Positions 17,492 through 24,896 of a DNA stretch of 36,385 nt are shown here, piece by piece. Origin of the DNA: a candidate division WS6 bacterium GW2011_GWE2_33_157 (GTDB taxonomy: Bacteria; Patescibacteriota; Dojkabacteria; SC72); NCBI GenBank assembly GCA_000989675.1, contig LBOT01000002.1, positions 1-36,385 on the forward strand, written 5' to 3'. The notes beneath the pieces are model-generated. The model saw only the letters and a program-made list of their open reading frames with translations. It was not told where the DNA came from and did not search any database. A program made the position numbers and the translations under genes. Every line of letters begins with the position of its first letter. Position 1 is the stretch's first letter.

Positions 17492-18025
17492 TTACTCTTC
17501 AGATGATATATTAAATATTACTGTATTACCAACCCCCACCCTATTACTTAAACAGAAATTACCATTTACTTCTAATACATATTTAAATGGTTTCTCAGAT
17601 AATATATTAAGACAGTAATCAGATTCACAAATAGAAAGATTCTCTTTAATATCAACAACATAACCTCTTGAATCTATAAATATCATATCTAATGTAATAT
17701 ACATATCTTTCATCCAAAAAGGTGAAATATCCTCCTCATCCATTATAAACAACATACCATTGTACTCTCCCAGTTCTTTTCTCCCAGATAGCCCATTACT
17801 TCTTGCAAGTACTGTATCAGCAAGTTCAACATTTACAATAATAGTTTTACCATCACTATTAAATATCTCTACTGTATTATCTTTGTTAATCACTTCTTCC
17901 TCGTTCTGCTCTTTGTTCACATCATCTGAAAGCTTAATATCGAATATAGAGAATTTGTTTTGTATAAAGTAGAAAATTGATACTACTAAGAGTATGTATA
18001 AAATCAATTTTAATTGGCTATTCAT
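17492..18025 (-). CDS. DUF192 family protein with N-terminal anchor
   Basis: VELADT..ARSNGLSGR, GMLF, FWMKDMYITLDMIFID and YVLEVNG. Confidence 0.9.
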   Translation of the reverse strand: MNSQLKLILYILLVVSIFYFIQNKFSIFDIKLSDDVNKEQNEEEVINKDNTVEIFNSDGKTIIVNVELADTVLARSNGLSGRKELGEYNGMLFIMDEEDISPFWMKDMYITLDMIFIDSRGYVVDIKENLSICESDYCLNILSEKPFKYVLEVNGNFCLSNRVGVGNTVIFNISSEE

Positions 18026-18075
18026 ATTAATAAATAATATATAAATAAAATAGTATTCTCAAGCTACATAAGGTA

Positions 18076-18104
18076 TTGCTTAAATAGAATAGTAGTAATA
18101 TAAT
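18076..18104 (+). promoter_or_regulatory. Sigma70-type promoter for the small-peptide locus
   Basis: TTGCTT (18076-18081), 17-nt spacer, TATAAT (18099-18104). Confidence 0.7.
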
Positions 18105-18201
18105 GCTCAGTTCTTTCAAAAGACAATGTGATAAGGATTTTTTTATCATTCACACTGCTTAAAATAGCGTGTTTTAGAATTCATTCCTAAAGGAGGATGA
18201 A

Positions 18202-18312
18202 ATGGGAATACCAAGAATAAGTGATATTGAGAAAAAAGCTTTTGTAGTTTTACTAAAGATGTTCGCAGGTTCATTTCTACTTATACTGTTCCTTAAGGTT
18301 CTTTTCGGTTAG
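18202..18312 (+). CDS. 36-aa hydrophobic peptide (type I toxin-like), not in the ORF track
   Basis: AGGAGG at 18191-18196, 5 nt before the ATG. MGIPRISDIEKKAFVVLLKMFAGSFLLILFLKVLFG* has one TM-length hydrophobic stretch. Confidence 0.7.
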   Translation: MGIPRISDIEKKAFVVLLKMFAGSFLLILFLKVLFG

Positions 18313-18324
18313 TTTCTTTCAAAT

Positions 18325-18365
18325 CCAAGTCTGGTAACTAGACAATCTATTTTTACCAGACTTGG
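18325..18365. other. Strong stem-loop downstream of the small ORF
   Basis: Perfect 13-bp inverted repeat CCAAGTCTGGTAA (18325-18337) / TTACCAGACTTGG (18353-18365), with an inner TAGA/TCTA stem. Confidence 0.75.
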
Positions 18366-18399
18366 TACCTCTTTAAAACACGCTATATTTTTCCAATAA

Positions 18400-18428
18400 T
18401 AGACAATCAAAAATATATAATGTACAAT
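18400..18428 (+). promoter_or_regulatory. Sigma70-type promoter for the helicase gene
   Basis: TAGACA (18400-18405), 17-nt spacer, TACAAT (18423-18428). Confidence 0.55.
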
Positions 18429-18459
18429 GCAGACGCCATAAATTTGCATTTTAAAATAT

Positions 18460-20664
18460 ATGCAAACCTTTGAGAAAGAATTAAACCCCATATATACAAG
18501 AATTGATGAAATCAATAACTTTAAAGAGGTTTTTTCTCAAAATAATACTGAAAAAGAAGAATATCCCCATCTAGAAAAAGTAACAAATATTAATGCATTA
18601 ACTGCTAAAAGAATGCTCTCTAGATTAAAAACCTTAGAAAAAGATTTAGAAGAGCAAGCAAAAACAATACAAAGAGAAACTGATATGGATTCTAAGAAAG
18701 ATGCAGTAGGGATATATAACAAGATATTAAAAGAAATAGAGGACTGTGTAGAAAGAATAAATAGGGAATTAATTAAACTAGATACTCCATATTTTGGAAA
18801 GATACTCTTTAAAACAAAGATAAGGGAGAAATCAAGAGAGCTACCAATATATATAGGGAAGTTTGCATTAATGGATCCAGATACATATCAACCATTAATT
18901 AGTGATTGGAGAGCACCCATTGCAAACATATACTATGAAAACAGTGGTCCTACAAAAGCCTTAAAATATGATACCCCCTCTGGAATAAAGGAAGGAGATT
19001 TAATACAAAAGAGGCAATTTAATATTTCAGAAGCTCGATTTAAACATATATATGATGCTAAGAGTGGTAATACGGCTGCTGATGAATTTTTACTTGCTCA
19101 ATTAACAGAAAGATTAGGACAAAAACTTAAAGATATTGTTGCTACAATACAGGAGCAACAAAACAAAATAATAAGGGAAGAAATAAATAAACCAGTAATA
19201 ATACAAGGGGTTGCTGGTAGTGGTAAAACAACAATATTACTACATAAATTAGCATATCTGTTCTACTCACATCAAAATAATATTCATCCAGAAAAGACAT
19301 TAATAATAGCTCCCAATAAAATGTTTCTTGATTACATCTCTGATGTATTGCCTAGTTTGGGCGTAGAGAAAGTAGAAAGTAATACATATATTTTCTGGGC
19401 AAAAAACATCTTAGGTTGGAATGATTCATATACCATATTCCCTGGAGATGAAGATTTAAATATAAAGGAATATAAAGGTACAAATGAATATATTGAAATA
19501 TTGGATTCCTACTTTGAAGAATTTGAATCTAACTTACTCGAAAACATCCCCTATGCAAGAAAAGATGTTCTAAGAAGAAGATATTACGAACTTAAAGAAC
19601 AAAATCCTAAAATAACAATGACAGAGAGATTAACTCTCTCATTAGAATATGCATTTGCTCAAAAGCAATTTAAGGATAAAAATATTAGAAATGTATATGG
19701 TACTTTTGAAACAGATAATTTAAAAAAGAAAGAAATATTAAAATATTTCTCAAGTAATACTATCTCTATGGAAGTATATCGAGATATGTTTAAAAAGGGA
19801 TACCTAAAAAAAGAAATAGCTACATATACATTAGAAGGAGTGTCCAGAAGAGGAAAACAAAAAACATATAGAATGGAAGACCTAGCACCAATTCTTTACC
19901 TTCATCTTAAGATACATGGCCATTCTGAATTTGATAAGGAGTATGTAATGGTTGATGAAGCACAAGATTTAAGTCTAGTACAGATATTAACGCTTCTTCA
20001 AATATCTAAAAATCAGAATATTACATTCGCAGGTGATTTAGCACAATCCATTATCCCCCCATTCTATATTAAAGATTGGAATGGAGTAATAACACTCTTT
20101 GAAAAACTCGGTCTTACAAAATACTCATATCACCAATTAAATAGATGTTACAGAACTACATTAGAAGTGATAGATTTCGCGAATAAAATATTTAGAGATC
20201 GTTTTCCTAAAAGCTATAAATTACCTGAAGCTATACTTAGACATGGAGAAGAGATAAGGATCTTTAAACATGAGAAAGAGGTTAAAGATATAACAGAGAA
20301 GGATTTAAAAATATTAGTAAATGAAATAAAGAAACAATTTGAAAAAGGTTCTGTTACATGTGCACTAATATGTAGAGATAAGGCGCATGCAAAAATAGCA
20401 TATGAGAGATTAATTAAATATGAGAAATATTTAGAAAGAGATATTGTTGATTACTCTATTAATGACTATAAAACAGGATTACTAATACTACCTGTTGAAG
20501 ATGCAAAAGGGTTAGAATTTGATACCGTTATGTTACTTGATGTTAACAGTAGTACATATCCAGATACAGAGCTTTCTACTAGGCTTTTGTATGTAGCAAT
20601 AACAAGGGCTTTACATAGGTTAGTAATAATTGAAAATAATAATAAATCACCAATAATGAAATGA
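18460..20664 (+). CDS. helD: HelD-like SF1 helicase / RNA polymerase recycling factor
   Basis: PYFGKI, LISDWRAPIANIYYE, LKDIVATIQEQQNKIIR, Walker A GVAGSGKTT, VDEAQD, AKGLEFD and LYVAITRA. Confidence 0.82.
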   Translation: MQTFEKELNPIYTRIDEINNFKEVFSQNNTEKEEYPHLEKVTNINALTAKRMLSRLKTLEKDLEEQAKTIQRETDMDSKKDAVGIYNKILKEIEDCVERINRELIKLDTPYFGKILFKTKIREKSRELPIYIGKFALMDPDTYQPLISDWRAPIANIYYENSGPTKALKYDTPSGIKEGDLIQKRQFNISEARFKHIYDAKSGNTAADEFLLAQLTERLGQKLKDIVATIQEQQNKIIREEINKPVIIQGVAGSGKTTILLHKLAYLFYSHQNNIHPEKTLIIAPNKMFLDYISDVLPSLGVEKVESNTYIFWAKNILGWNDSYTIFPGDEDLNIKEYKGTNEYIEILDSYFEEFESNLLENIPYARKDVLRRRYYELKEQNPKITMTERLTLSLEYAFAQKQFKDKNIRNVYGTFETDNLKKKEILKYFSSNTISMEVYRDMFKKGYLKKEIATYTLEGVSRRGKQKTYRMEDLAPILYLHLKIHGHSEFDKEYVMVDEAQDLSLVQILTLLQISKNQNITFAGDLAQSIIPPFYIKDWNGVITLFEKLGLTKYSYHQLNRCYRTTLEVIDFANKIFRDRFPKSYKLPEAILRHGEEIRIFKHEKEVKDITEKDLKILVNEIKKQFEKGSVTCALICRDKAHAKIAYERLIKYEKYLERDIVDYSINDYKTGLLILPVEDAKGLEFDTVMLLDVNSSTYPDTELSTRLLYVAITRALHRLVIIENNNKSPIMK

Positions 20665-21929
20665 GTATATATGGTGCTTTAATCGGAATAGGAATAATAA
20701 TTGGTATTGAACTAATACGTAAGTATTACAAGCAGATATCATATACAGACATACTTATAATCCTCGTATCTGCATTAATTGGAGCAAGAGGACTTTTTCT
20801 TTTGCATAACATCCGTGAAATACAAATTGGAATAATAAATCCAATAGCAGTATGGGATGGTGGTTTAGCATTCTTTGGAGGATTAATAGGTATACTTCTT
20901 TCAATATATATCATTAGTAAAAAGAAAAAGCTCTCATTTCTAAACATCTTGGATTCTACCCTACTCTTCTTACCTTTAATTCAATCAATTGGAAGAATTG
21001 GAAACTTTTTTAATCATGAATTGTATGGTAAACCCACCTCTCTTCCATGGGGTGTGTATGTACCAGAGCAGTACAGAGATCAACAGTACATATCATTTAC
21101 TCATTTTCATCCCGTATTTTTCTATGAATCTATCCTCAATATCCTTAATTTTGCTATCCTTCTCCTATTAAGAAAAAAGTTTAAAAAGGAAGGATATATA
21201 ACTGCAATATATTTTATCAATTACTCATTAATACGATTACTAATGAATGTGATAAGAATAGACAAAGAGTATATACTTAATTTAGAGACTTCAGATATCT
21301 TTTCTGGTATATTTTTAGCTATAGGGGTCTTAATCCTATTAAATACAATGGAAAATAATAATATAAAAGATTTAATAGCAAAATTCTTTTCAAGAATTCT
21401 TACAATATCCTTAATTATCCTTGCAATTGTTTCAATTCTCTTAAAAACAACATTACCATTTGAAACTGAATTAATAATTGCAACACTTACATTTGTTGTA
21501 CCAATATTAACAATAGTTCTTTTCAAAAAGTTAGGTATAACTTCTGATTTTAATGTAAGTAAAAGGAGTGAAAGACCAAGACTCTTTGCAGTAATGGCAA
21601 TATCTTTTGCAATAGCACTTTACATAGCTATTAACTCTTCTAGTACTCTTTTAATAGTAATATTCTCTACACTTAATATCACTTTCTTTTTAGGCTTTGT
21701 AATTACACTTTTTTGGAAGATAAGTTTTCATATGATCTGGAGTATACTTGCAACCTTCTTTATCATTTACTCATTACAAACACCTCAATCATATCTTTTA
21801 ATACTTTTCATTCCTTTAATTGCATGGTCTAGATTACAATTAAAAAGGCACTCCCTTTTACAGGTAGTAGCAGGTACTCTTTTAACTCTTACATGTATTT
21901 TTCTAGTTTTAACCTTTATTAAATTCTGA
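20661..21929 (+). CDS. lgt: Prolipoprotein diacylglyceryl transferase fused to a PAP2-like membrane domain
   Basis: Residues ~1-229 carry WDGGLAFFGG, GRIGNFFNHELYG and HP..FYES. The C-terminal ~190 aa carry WKISFH and WSRLQLKRHSLLQV (PAP2 C2/C3-like). Confidence 0.85.
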   Translation: MSIYGALIGIGIIIGIELIRKYYKQISYTDILIILVSALIGARGLFLLHNIREIQIGIINPIAVWDGGLAFFGGLIGILLSIYIISKKKKLSFLNILDSTLLFLPLIQSIGRIGNFFNHELYGKPTSLPWGVYVPEQYRDQQYISFTHFHPVFFYESILNILNFAILLLLRKKFKKEGYITAIYFINYSLIRLLMNVIRIDKEYILNLETSDIFSGIFLAIGVLILLNTMENNNIKDLIAKFFSRILTISLIILAIVSILLKTTLPFETELIIATLTFVVPILTIVLFKKLGITSDFNVSKRSERPRLFAVMAISFAIALYIAINSSSTLLIVIFSTLNITFFLGFVITLFWKISFHMIWSILATFFIIYSLQTPQSYLLILFIPLIAWSRLQLKRHSLLQVVAGTLLTLTCIFLVLTFIKF

Positions 21930-24863: not shown

Positions 24864-24896
24864 TATCAGAAGTGAGAAAGCTCATCACTTCTGATA
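24864..24896. terminator. Hairpin overlapping the sipW stop codon
   Basis: Perfect 12-bp inverted repeat TATCAGAAGTGA (24864-24875) / TCACTTCTGATA (24885-24896). Confidence 0.55.

What the first reader, a model, noticed from the sequence alone, without database searches (positions are those of the whole stretch)
18076..18390. Hidden type I toxin-antitoxin-like locus: 36-aa membrane peptide in a self-folding mRNA
Seen in the apparently empty gap between DUF192 and helD: (i) a near-consensus promoter (TTGCTT-17-TATAAT); (ii) a ~90-nt leader with a TGATAA/TTATCA hairpin; (iii) the only textbook AGGAGG SD I noticed in the window, which can pair with the TTCATTCC just upstream; (iv) a 36-aa ORF with a single hydrophobic helix; (v) a 13-bp perfect hairpin after the stop; (vi) 15-bp long-range complementarity between the 5' leader ATAGCGTGTTTTAGA (18164-18178) and the 3' end TTTAAAACACGCTAT (18372-18386), with one G-U. 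Established: a sequestered SD, 5'-3' fold-back and a small TM peptide are the architecture of type I toxin mRNAs (hok, ldr, aapA). Inference: an undescribed type I TA or tightly controlled small-protein system in a CPR-like bacterium. I could not identify a convincing antisense promoter.
Basis: partly seen in the sequence, partly recalled or inferred. Interest (0 to 1): 0.75.

Follow-up and report, generated by a model that had tools for sequence, protein, structure and literature searches.

The report
Orphan 36-residue membrane-peptide gene cassette
A 330-base stretch found only in this tiny groundwater bacterium looks like a complete mini-gene for a 36-residue membrane peptide in a tightly folded messenger RNA; it resembles a type I toxin gene, but no antitoxin, extra copy or relative was found, so that label is unproven.

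Summary
Together they exceed chance. The RNA fold has z = -4.4. The 13-bp hairpin is the longest perfect hairpin in the 612-kb genome. The ribosome-binding site matches the 16S tail over 8 bases. Some wording was too strong: the -35 box matches only TTG, AGGAGG occurs 14 times in the window, and the ribosome site is only partly masked.

The unit is a ~330-nt species-specific insert (about 18063-18395). It sits between the back-to-back promoters of DUF192 and helD. In 18 of 20 related loci that gap is only 70-107 nt.

The peptide has no relative among 1.84 billion representative proteins. The locus is single-copy. I found no antisense promoter or complementary RNA gene. No RNA data exist, and the population data show no informative variation.

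Two other small genes in this genome, neither with a membrane segment, share the same design: strong ribosome site, highly folded mRNA and a 13-bp hairpin after the stop. One of them is conserved in other genera.

Most likely this is a real orphan gene for a small membrane peptide. A type I toxin remains possible (about 0.15-0.2). Interest is modest.

The parts
18063..18395 (.). Species-specific insert between the DUF192 and helD promoters (boundaries within about 5 nt)
   Evidence: The window gap is 434 nt. In 18 of 20 related loci holding both genes it is 70-107 nt. DNA conservation with relatives resumes at about 18395-18399.
18076..18104 (+). Promoter-like site TTGCTT-17-TATAAT; predicted transcript start near 18111
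   Evidence: It is the only TTG-N20-TATAAT in the window, but 1.59 are expected by chance. Function is inferred.
18111..18201 (+). Predicted ~90-nt leader, with a 5' stem-loop that includes TGATAA 18129-18134 / TTATCA 18143-18148
   Evidence: The transcript start is inferred from the -10 box.
18164..18178 (+). 5' arm of the 15-bp long-range helix
   Evidence: Pair probabilities are 0.80-1.00.
18180..18201 (+). Local hairpin (-8.1 kcal/mol) that partly covers the ribosome-binding site AAAGGAGG (18189-18196)
   Evidence: The site is complementary to the 16S 3' tail CCUCCUUU.
18202..18312 (+). ORF for a 36-aa peptide: polar N-terminus (residues 1-13), then a hydrophobic helix running to the C-terminus
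   Evidence: The best 19-residue Kyte-Doolittle window scores 2.49, reached by 2.7% of 826 ATG ORFs of 30-45 aa. AlphaFold2 from the single sequence gives a helix over residues 7-35, mean pLDDT 89.
18325..18365 (.). Perfect 13-bp hairpin with a 4-bp inner extension (-21.8 kcal/mol); no U-tract follows it
   Evidence: It is the longest perfect hairpin in the genome.
18372..18386 (+). 3' arm of the long-range helix
18388..18392 (+). U5 tract one base after the long-range helix; possible transcript end 8 nt before the helD -35 box
   Evidence: A terminator role is inferred.
18034..18062 (-). Context: DUF192 promoter-like site (TTGAGA-17-TATTAT) that marks the left edge of the insert
   Evidence: Equivalent position in relatives.
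18400..18428 (+). Context: the conserved helD promoter (TAGACA-17-TACAAT) that marks the right edge of the insert
   Evidence: TAGACA is present in 15 of 19 aligned loci.

Best explanation
This is a real, species-specific, self-contained small gene that sits in the gap between the divergent DUF192 and helD promoters.

Proposed working, each step marked:
- A sigma-70-type promoter at 18076-18104 starts an RNA of about 280 nt near 18111 (inferred).
- A ribosome-binding site with 8 bases complementary to the 16S tail drives translation of a 36-residue peptide (ORF and site shown; translation inferred).
- The polar N-terminus of the peptide stays in the cytoplasm, and its 23-residue C-terminal helix sits in the membrane (inferred from hydrophobicity and the predicted helix).
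- A 15-bp helix between the leader and the 3' end closes the RNA. A U5 tract follows this helix, and a very stable 13-bp hairpin lies inside it.
- I read these structures as ending and stabilising the transcript and insulating the helD promoter 8 nt downstream. A weak local hairpin gives only mild damping of translation (inferred).

What the peptide does in the membrane is unknown. A toxin role is neither shown nor excluded.
For: The insert is a unit:
- 18 of 20 related loci have a 70-107-nt gap where the window has 434 nt.
- The insert's edges fall 13 nt before the promoter-like site and 3 nt after the U5 tract.

Translation signals:
- AAAGGAGG is complementary to the 16S tail.
- Among intergenic ORFs of 20-89 aa, only 11 genome-wide carry a site of 6 nt or more at the right spacing. 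This one (8 nt) ranks joint second, behind a 66-aa gene that I read as ribosomal protein S21.
- Strong sites of this kind precede genes I read as RpoC, HU and S21 (names from my reading of the sequences, not tested).
- The hydrophobic window score of 2.49 is reached by 2.7% of 826 ORFs of 30-45 aa.
- The predicted structure is a single helix, residues 7-35.

Internal control:
- Perfect hairpins with a stem of 13 bp or more and a loop of 50 nt or less number exactly three in the genome.
- Each starts 8-19 nt after the stop of a small ORF that has a strong ribosome site (C2 36 aa, C1 43 aa, C4 89 aa).
- The 89-aa gene has homologs in the same position between the L1 and L10 genes in two other genera (E 5e-11 and 1e-7), so this signature marks real genes here.
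- All three RNAs are strongly folded (z -4.4, -5.4, -4.4).

Presence in the field:
- Contigs from 4 of 4 runs laid, from 4 studies, cover the insert.
- 20 DNA runs of 8 studies hold the locus.
- A strain 0.8% diverged carries only two 1-nt deletions, at 18069 and 18138. Both lie outside the ORF, the ribosome site and the stems.
Against: - No relative of the peptide was found. Among 1.84 billion representative proteins the only real match is the peptide itself; the one other listed hit is a 991-aa protein with no aligned stretch. The peptide forms a one-member cluster. Across 40 related genomes there are two weak hits with stops inside, E 0.04 and 0.12.
- Selection on the reading frame therefore cannot be tested.
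- There is no expression evidence.
- The promoter motif occurs at chance frequency.
- AT-rich DNA readily yields hydrophobic ORFs: 23% of 826 small ORFs pass a hydrophobicity score of 1.6.
- Both strands fold about equally well, as a DNA palindrome would.
- My hand estimate is about 0.08 chance cases genome-wide of an 8-nt site plus a start plus 36 open codons in intergenic DNA. That is suggestive, not decisive.
Confidence: 0.5

Rival explanations
1. Type I toxin-antitoxin module. The 36-aa peptide is a membrane-damaging toxin, and its mRNA is kept quiet by folding. An undetected antisense RNA blocks or destroys the mRNA. One candidate would start at the weak minus-strand promoter-like site 18476-18448 and overlap the mRNA 3' end through the two-way 13-bp hairpin. 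The Bacillus txpA/RatA and bsrG/SR4 pairs overlap at their 3' ends in this way (recalled, not checked here).
For: - The peptide is small and hydrophobic.
- The mRNA has a 5' stem-loop, a local anti-ribosome-site hairpin, a 5'-3' long-range helix with pair probability 0.8-1.0, and a stable 3' hairpin. These are the descriptors T1TAdb used (PMC8594479, passages).
- The one mismatch in the long helix is G-U on the plus strand and C-A on the minus strand.
- The unit is a young, self-contained insert in an intergenic region.
- A 9-of-12 promoter-like site on the minus strand at 18476-18448 points into the 3' end of the unit.
Against: - No minus-strand promoter-like site lies between 18130 and 18447. 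The one at 18476-18448 sits in the helD start region.
- No terminator-like site on the minus strand.
- The only complementary stretch longer than 13 nt elsewhere in the genome is 19 of 20 nt inside a coding region, at BLAST E 0.4.
- Single copy.
- 0 families in Pfam, NCBIfam and PADLOC, and nothing in Rfam.
- The ribosome site is no more masked than in ordinary genes.
- The same mRNA design occurs on a basic 43-aa protein gene and a Cys-rich 89-aa protein gene, and an HU-like gene's mRNA is as folded, z -3.7.
Confidence: 0.17
2. Non-coding palindromic element. The insert would be a remnant of a small mobile DNA (MITE-like or hairpin element), or a gene for a structured small RNA, and the ORF with its ribosome site would be fortuitous.
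For: - Nested inverted repeats: 16-nt arms at 18161-18176 / 18374-18389 around a 13-bp hairpin.
- Both strands fold about equally well.
- The insert is young and lineage-specific.
- The same intergenic slot holds a different ~1-kb insert in another genus.
- Earlier notes of this scan report hairpin mobile elements in other CPR genomes (unchecked leads).
Against: - One copy in the genome, even allowing 2 mismatches per arm.
- 0 exact two-arm matches for either repeat in 185,579 species genomes, and 0 for the hairpin in viral contigs.
- I saw no target-site duplication at the junctions.
- The only GIY-YIG match lies in a 494-aa frame, which I read as UvrC.
- No Rfam family matches.
- The 8-nt ribosome site at ideal spacing before a 36-codon strongly hydrophobic frame, and the matching design of two other small genes, are hard to explain as accident.
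Confidence: 0.2
3. Leader peptide or upstream ORF that controls helD. Transcripts from the upstream promoter would read through into helD, and translation of the 36-codon ORF would set which hairpins form.
For: - Same strand as helD, and the 13-bp hairpin lacks a U-tract.
- A short alternative hairpin, 18329-18343, followed by a T-run competes with the long one.
Against: - helD keeps its own promoter and 5' UTR downstream of the insert. These are conserved in relatives that lack the insert (TAGACA in 15 of 19 loci).
- 18 of 20 related loci manage without any such leader.
- The long helix plus U5 just before the helD -35 box looks like an insulator.
Confidence: 0.05

Closest known systems
Type I toxin mRNAs with 5'-3' fold-back (hok/Sok, AapA1/IsoA1) and 3'-overlapping Bacillus pairs (txpA/RatA, bsrG/SR4)
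   Same: - Hydrophobic peptide under 60 aa.
- Long structured leader and a 5' stem-loop.
- Anti-ribosome-site pairing, a 5'-3' long-distance helix and a stable 3' hairpin. These descriptors are from PMC8594479 (passages read). The system names and details are recalled.
   Different: - No antisense RNA gene found.
- Single copy.
- No sequence or profile match to any toxin or antitoxin family.
- The ribosome site is only partly masked, and the long helix does not cover it.
- Toxicity untested.
Non-toxic small membrane proteins of bacteria (reviewed in PMC10730256; only the search listing and abstract were seen)
   Same: A single-helix peptide of about 30-50 aa, made from its own small transcript with a strong ribosome-binding site.
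   Different: Known examples are usually conserved across related species and tied to a partner gene. This one is an orphan inserted between unrelated genes.
Self-contained single-gene cassettes ('moron'-like units) and variable small-gene slots noted earlier in this scan in other CPR genomes (e1-1105058, e1-1144987; unchecked AI notes)
   Same: - Own promoter, strong ribosome site, small ORF and terminal hairpin.
- A genomic slot that holds different genes in related lineages. Here the slot is DUF192-helD: 36 aa in this genome and 275-281 aa in genus g7.
   Different: Here the GC content is ordinary (31% against 33% for the genome), and there is no link to a tRNA gene or a phage.
Two other small genes of this same genome (C1 12379-12510, 43 aa; C4 9243-9512, 89 aa)
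   Same: - Strong ribosome site.
- RNA fold z of -5.4 and -4.4.
- A perfect 13-bp hairpin 8-19 nt after the stop codon.
   Different: - Their products are basic or Cys-rich and have no membrane segment.
- They share a 20-nt upstream palindrome, ATATCCCTTTnCAAnAGGAT, which is absent from the focal locus.
- The 89-aa gene is conserved in two other genera.

Membership tests
Type I toxin-antitoxin system | Small (under ~60 aa) hydrophobic, membrane-active toxin ORF | tested here: met
   36 aa; best 19-residue Kyte-Doolittle window 2.49; predicted single helix over residues 7-35. Membrane activity itself was not tested.
Type I toxin-antitoxin system | Antisense RNA antitoxin, with its own promoter, that base-pairs with the toxin mRNA | tested here: inconclusive
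   None found. No minus-strand promoter-like site at 18130-18447 and no minus-strand terminator. Only a 9-of-12 site at 18476-18448, inside the helD start. No trans complement better than 19 of 20 nt at E 0.4, and that one lies inside a coding region. Sequence scans cannot exclude an RNA.
Type I toxin-antitoxin system | Toxin mRNA held inactive by ribosome-site masking and/or a 5'-3' long-distance interaction (T1TAdb descriptors, PMC8594479) | tested here: inconclusive
   The long helix is predicted with probability 0.8-1.0, but it does not include the ribosome site. The site is 36-59% unpaired, like ordinary genes at 30-62%, and removing the 3' arm does not change this.
Type I toxin-antitoxin system | Growth arrest or killing when the peptide is over-produced, relieved by the antitoxin RNA | not testable with these tools
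   Needs an expression experiment.
Type I toxin-antitoxin system | Match to a described toxin or antitoxin family | tested here: not met
   0 families in Pfam, NCBIfam and PADLOC at E up to 10. Rfam: 8 sub-threshold matches, best E 0.78, none of them a TA RNA.
MITE-like or hairpin mobile element | Several copies with conserved terminal inverted repeats and a target-site duplication | tested here: not met
   One copy in the genome at up to 2 mismatches per arm. 0 two-arm matches in genome contigs or viral contigs. No duplication seen at the junctions. No small GIY-YIG nuclease.
Intrinsic (rho-independent) terminator | Compact GC-rich hairpin followed at once by a U-tract | tested here: inconclusive
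   The 13-bp hairpin is followed by UACCUCUUUA, with no U-tract. The 15-bp long-range helix is followed by A + U5, but it encloses 193 nt. Canonical terminators of this genome have 10-12-bp stems, 3-9-nt loops and T-runs.
Ribosome-mediated attenuator or leader peptide of the downstream gene | The downstream gene depends on read-through from the leader's promoter | tested here: not met
   helD keeps a conserved promoter of its own after the insert (15 of 19 loci). 18 of 20 related loci have no leader unit.

The most novel reading that the evidence does not exclude
The cassette is a new, family-less type I toxin-antitoxin module in an ultra-small groundwater (CPR-type) bacterium. I found no paper that pairs 'type I toxin-antitoxin' with 'candidate phyla radiation' (0 papers).

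The peptide would depolarise the membrane. An antisense RNA would start in the helD start region and overlap the mRNA 3' end through the two-way 13-bp hairpin. The 5'-3' helix would keep the full-length mRNA inert.

A wider version: this genome carries a class of 'closed-loop' small-gene mRNAs (three loci) that mark tightly controlled peptides.
Probability: 0.15. Interest if true: 0.6.

Novelty: new member of a known kind. Interest (0 to 1): 0.3.

Why it matters
If the peptide is made, it is an example of a very young orphan gene. It carries a full set of expression signals and was added to one of the smallest and most streamlined bacterial genomes, at a spot where a sister genus has added a different gene. 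That bears on how reduced symbiont-like genomes still gain new membrane functions.

If it proved to be a type I toxin, it would extend these RNA-controlled modules to a major uncultured lineage, and it would give a toxin with no known family.

As it stands the case rests on one sequence, with no relatives and no expression data, so its value is as a candidate for experiment.

Tried and rejected
- **RNA evidence.** No RNA holder is listed among the 21 runs, so expression could not be examined.
- **Population variation.** The four runs laid cover the insert. The 0.8%-diverged contig of X20 has none of its 25 listed substitutions (of 26 in all) between 17895 and 18496, only 1-nt deletions at 18069 and 18138. 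The positions of the few differences in X13 and X11 pieces over the insert were not printed. No covariation or dN/dS test was possible. A 509-nt stretch of helD is equally free of changes, so the clean stretch says little.
- **Peptide searches.**
I did not pad it.
  - I used the representative library, the exact cluster look-up, six-frame search of 40 relatives and the ESM Atlas instead. The Atlas's best score, 0.86, is below its lead threshold.
- **DNA search of relatives.**
  - The hits at E below 1e-3 in G022, G006, G002, G021 (373026) and G001 all fall on the helD promoter and 5' UTR (18395-18459).
  - One in G023 lies inside a 465-aa coding frame.
  - One in G021 is a 28-nt A-rich stretch. 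I read both as chance.
- **Remnant of the genus-g7 gene at the same slot.** No similarity better than E 0.28.
- **Mobile-element reading.** See the rival explanation.
- **Trans-acting antisense.** See the rival explanation.
- **Rfam.** Nothing on the focal region, and nothing on the two sister loci.
- **Literature.** 0 papers hold both 'type I toxin-antitoxin' and 'candidate phyla radiation'.

Full report
**The sequence**

The window stretch 18026-18459 lies between two genes that point away from each other.
- On the minus strand is a DUF192 gene (17492-18025; Pfam PF02643, E 1.3e-25).
- On the plus strand is a UvrD/HelD-type helicase gene (18460-20664).

- TTGCTT 18076-18081, a 17-nt spacer, then TATAAT 18099-18104.
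- A small hairpin, TGATAA 18129-18134 / TTATCA 18143-18148.
- AAAGGAGG 18189-18196, 5 nt before the ATG at 18202.
- A 36-codon ORF, 18202-18312.
- A perfect 13-bp hairpin, 18325-18337 / 18353-18365.
- A 15-bp pairing with one G-U, between 18164-18178 and 18372-18386.

**Is it more than chance?**

As a whole, yes.
- The plus-strand RNA 18110-18395 folds to -73.1 kcal/mol, z = -4.36, and none of 200 dinucleotide shuffles folds as well.
- In my own control, 30 random 286-nt pieces of the genome gave mean z -0.09 (sd 1.12, minimum -2.9).
- The 13-bp hairpin is the longest perfect hairpin in the whole 612,802-bp genome, among hairpins with loops of 3-20 nt and at least 3 GC pairs.
- The 16S rRNA ends in ...ACCUCCUUUC, so AAAGGAGG is an 8-base perfect ribosome-binding site.

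- The -35 box shares only TTG with the consensus. TTG-N20-TATAAT is found once in the window, where 1.59 are expected.
- AGGAGG occurs 14 times in the window, against 12.3 expected. This copy is the only one in the window set before an ORF of 30 aa or more.
- Exact 13-nt inverted repeats 20-400 nt apart occur at 6 places in the genome. My hand estimate of the chance number is about 14.
- The minus strand folds nearly as well (z -4.01).
- The 'sequestered' ribosome site is only partly paired. P(unpaired) is 0.36 for GGAGG and 0.59 for the 8-mer. Three ordinary genes with strong sites give 0.30, 0.51 and 0.62. Cutting off the 3' arm does not change the value.

**It is a young insert**

The genome is 0.61 Mb, 33% GC and 96.85% complete. 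The DNA is held by groundwater, soil, aquatic and sediment metagenome runs. This fits a CPR-type bacterium.

The locus is single-copy. I looked at 40 related genomes from 34 other genera and 22 metagenome loci found with the DUF192 protein. Twenty of these loci hold both DUF192 and helD.
- In 18 of the 20 the gap is 70-107 nt, against 434 nt here.
- DNA similarity to relatives begins again at about 18395, at the conserved helD promoter. Contigs of related organisms in the laid runs break at 18399.
- The left edge lies just past the DUF192 -35 box, at about 18063.

The insert is therefore about 330 nt. It starts 13 nt before the promoter-like site and ends 3 nt after a U5 tract (18388-18392) that follows the long helix. 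That is the footprint of one complete transcription unit.

The other 2 of the 20 loci (genus g7) carry a different insert of about 1 kb at the same spot. It holds a 275-281-aa membrane-anchored protein on the other strand. That protein has no Pfam family and no similarity to the focal insert.

**The peptide**
- It has a polar N-terminus (residues 1-13, net charge +1), followed by a hydrophobic stretch that runs to the C-terminus.
- The best 19-residue hydrophobicity window scores 2.49. Only 2.7% of 826 ATG ORFs of 30-45 aa from all frames of the genome reach this, although 23% pass the usual 1.6 threshold.
- AlphaFold2 from the single sequence gives one helix, residues 7-35, mean pLDDT 89.
- The peptide has no relatives:
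  - Among 1.84 billion representatives there are two hits. One is itself; the other is a 991-aa protein with no aligned stretch.
  - It forms a one-member cluster, seen on 3 contigs.
  - The Atlas gives nothing above 0.86.
  - In 40 relatives there are two weak hits with internal stops.
  - There are no Pfam, NCBIfam or PADLOC families.

**Is the ORF translated? An internal control**

Most genes in this genome lack a Shine-Dalgarno site. GGAG lies upstream of 4.1% of 461 long ORFs, against 5.4% of random 20-mers. AGGAGG is enriched, 1.1% against 0.31%. It precedes genes whose products I read as RpoC, HU and S21 (names from my reading, not tested).

In DNA not covered by long ORFs, only 11 ORFs of 20-89 aa have a site of 6 nt or more at the right spacing. 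The focal ORF has one of the four longest.

The most telling result concerns long hairpins. Perfect hairpins with a stem of 13 bp or more and a loop of 50 nt or less number exactly three in the genome. Each begins 8-19 nt after the stop codon of one of those 11 ORFs:

| Locus | Product | Fold z |
|---|---|---|
| C2 18202-18312 (focal) | 36 aa, hydrophobic | -4.4 |
| C1 12379-12510 | 43 aa, basic | -5.4 |
| C4 9243-9512 | 89 aa, Cys-rich | -4.4 |

- In the 89-aa gene's predicted fold, a 10-bp long-range helix pairs the ribosome site with the end of the ORF.
- The 89-aa gene lies between the L1 and L10 genes. It has homologs at that same position in two other genera (E 5e-11 and 1e-7), so it is a real gene.
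- The mRNA of the HU-like gene is also strongly folded (z -3.7), while that of the S21-like gene is not (z -0.8).

This cuts two ways.
- It raises my confidence that the 36-aa ORF is a real, expressed gene.
- It also shows that a strong ribosome site, a closed and highly folded mRNA and a long 3' hairpin form a house style of small genes in this genome. They are not a mark of toxins.

**Testing the type I toxin-antitoxin reading**

T1TAdb built its searches on these descriptors: ribosome-site and anti-ribosome-site pairing, 5' stem-loops, 3' terminator stem-loops and 5'-3' long-distance interactions (PMC8594479, passages read). The resemblance is therefore real.

The defining partner, however, is missing.
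- No promoter-like site lies on the minus strand between 18130 and 18447, and there is no minus-strand terminator.
- The only candidate is a 9-of-12 site at 18476-18448, inside the helD start.
- The best complementary stretch elsewhere in the genome is 19 of 20 nt inside a coding region, at E 0.4.
- No Rfam family matches; the best E is 0.78.
- One small point favours a plus-strand RNA: the single mismatch in the long helix is G-U on the plus strand and C-A on the minus strand.
- Toxicity cannot be tested here.

**Other readings**

*Mobile palindromic element.* This is not supported.
- There is one copy in the genome, even allowing two mismatches per arm.
- No two-arm match was found in 185,579 species genomes or in viral contigs.
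- I saw no target duplication.
- The only GIY-YIG domain lies in a 494-aa frame.

*Leader peptide for helD.* This is unlikely, because helD keeps its own conserved promoter after the insert.

**Field data**
- 20 DNA runs from 8 studies hold the locus; none is on record as RNA.
- Contigs of 4 of 4 laid runs cover the insert.
- In the most diverged run (X20), one 29-kb contig differs at 26 bases and 2 gaps over 17506-20800.
- None of the 25 listed substitutions falls between 17895 and 18496. The two gaps are 1-nt deletions at 18069 (before the -35 box) and 18138 (in the loop of the leader hairpin).
- This is compatible with constraint but proves nothing, because changes are clumped elsewhere too.

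**Verdict**

The most likely reading (about 0.5) is a real, orphan, recently gained gene cassette for a 36-residue single-helix membrane peptide. Its RNA structures would end and stabilise the transcript and insulate the neighbouring helD promoter.

| Alternative reading | Confidence |
|---|---|
| Type I toxin with an undetected antitoxin | about 0.17 |
| Non-coding palindromic remnant or small RNA | about 0.2 |
| helD leader | about 0.05 |

The remainder covers pure coincidence. Because nothing is conserved outside one species and there is no expression evidence, interest is modest (0.3).

Noticed in passing
window 18396-18475; alignment A1 (L002-L029): The helD promoter and short 5' UTR are conserved at the DNA level across genera. 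TAGACA-17-TGTAAAAT is present in 15 of 19 loci, followed by TAAATTTGCAT-N9/10-ATGCAAAC. The 7-nt inverted repeat TTTGCAT/ATGCAAA places the helD start codon in a stem or in a palindromic operator. L024 has TTTGCGT/ATGCGAA, where both changes keep pairing only as G-U, a weak hint of an RNA hairpin. helD has no Shine-Dalgarno site.
   Followed up: partly
G000 C1 12326-12576 (L035 227-477) and C4 9156-9596 (L036 257-697): Two further small genes (43 aa basic; 89 aa Cys-rich, lying between the L1 and L10 genes) have strong ribosome sites, very folded mRNAs (z -5.4 and -4.4) and 13-bp hairpins after the stop. They share a 20-nt near-palindrome, ATATCCCTTTnCAAnAGGAT, just upstream. It occurs only at these two places in the genome, which suggests a common regulator site.
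   Followed up: partly
L002 619-1446 (-) and L003 1641-2486 (+): In genus g7 the same DUF192-helD slot holds a 275-281-aa protein with an N-terminal membrane anchor and no Pfam family, on the DUF192 strand. The slot appears to take up new genes repeatedly.
   Followed up: partly
window 18023-18062 (-) and the equivalent place in L004-L029: The DUF192 -10-like box sits only 5-8 nt before its ATG, both here and in relatives, and there is no ribosome-binding site. This suggests a leaderless or nearly leaderless mRNA.
   Followed up: no
whole genome G000: Shine-Dalgarno motifs are not enriched before most genes: GGAG 4.1% of 461 long ORFs against 5.4% of random 20-mers. Full AGGAGG is enriched about 3.5-fold and marks a small set of genes, although the 16S tail keeps CCUCCUUU. 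Gene starts were called crudely, as the first ATG of each long ORF.
   Followed up: partly
window 24864-24896: A 12-bp perfect hairpin with a 9-nt loop followed by TTTTTT, in an intergenic stretch. It looks like a canonical terminator.
   Followed up: no
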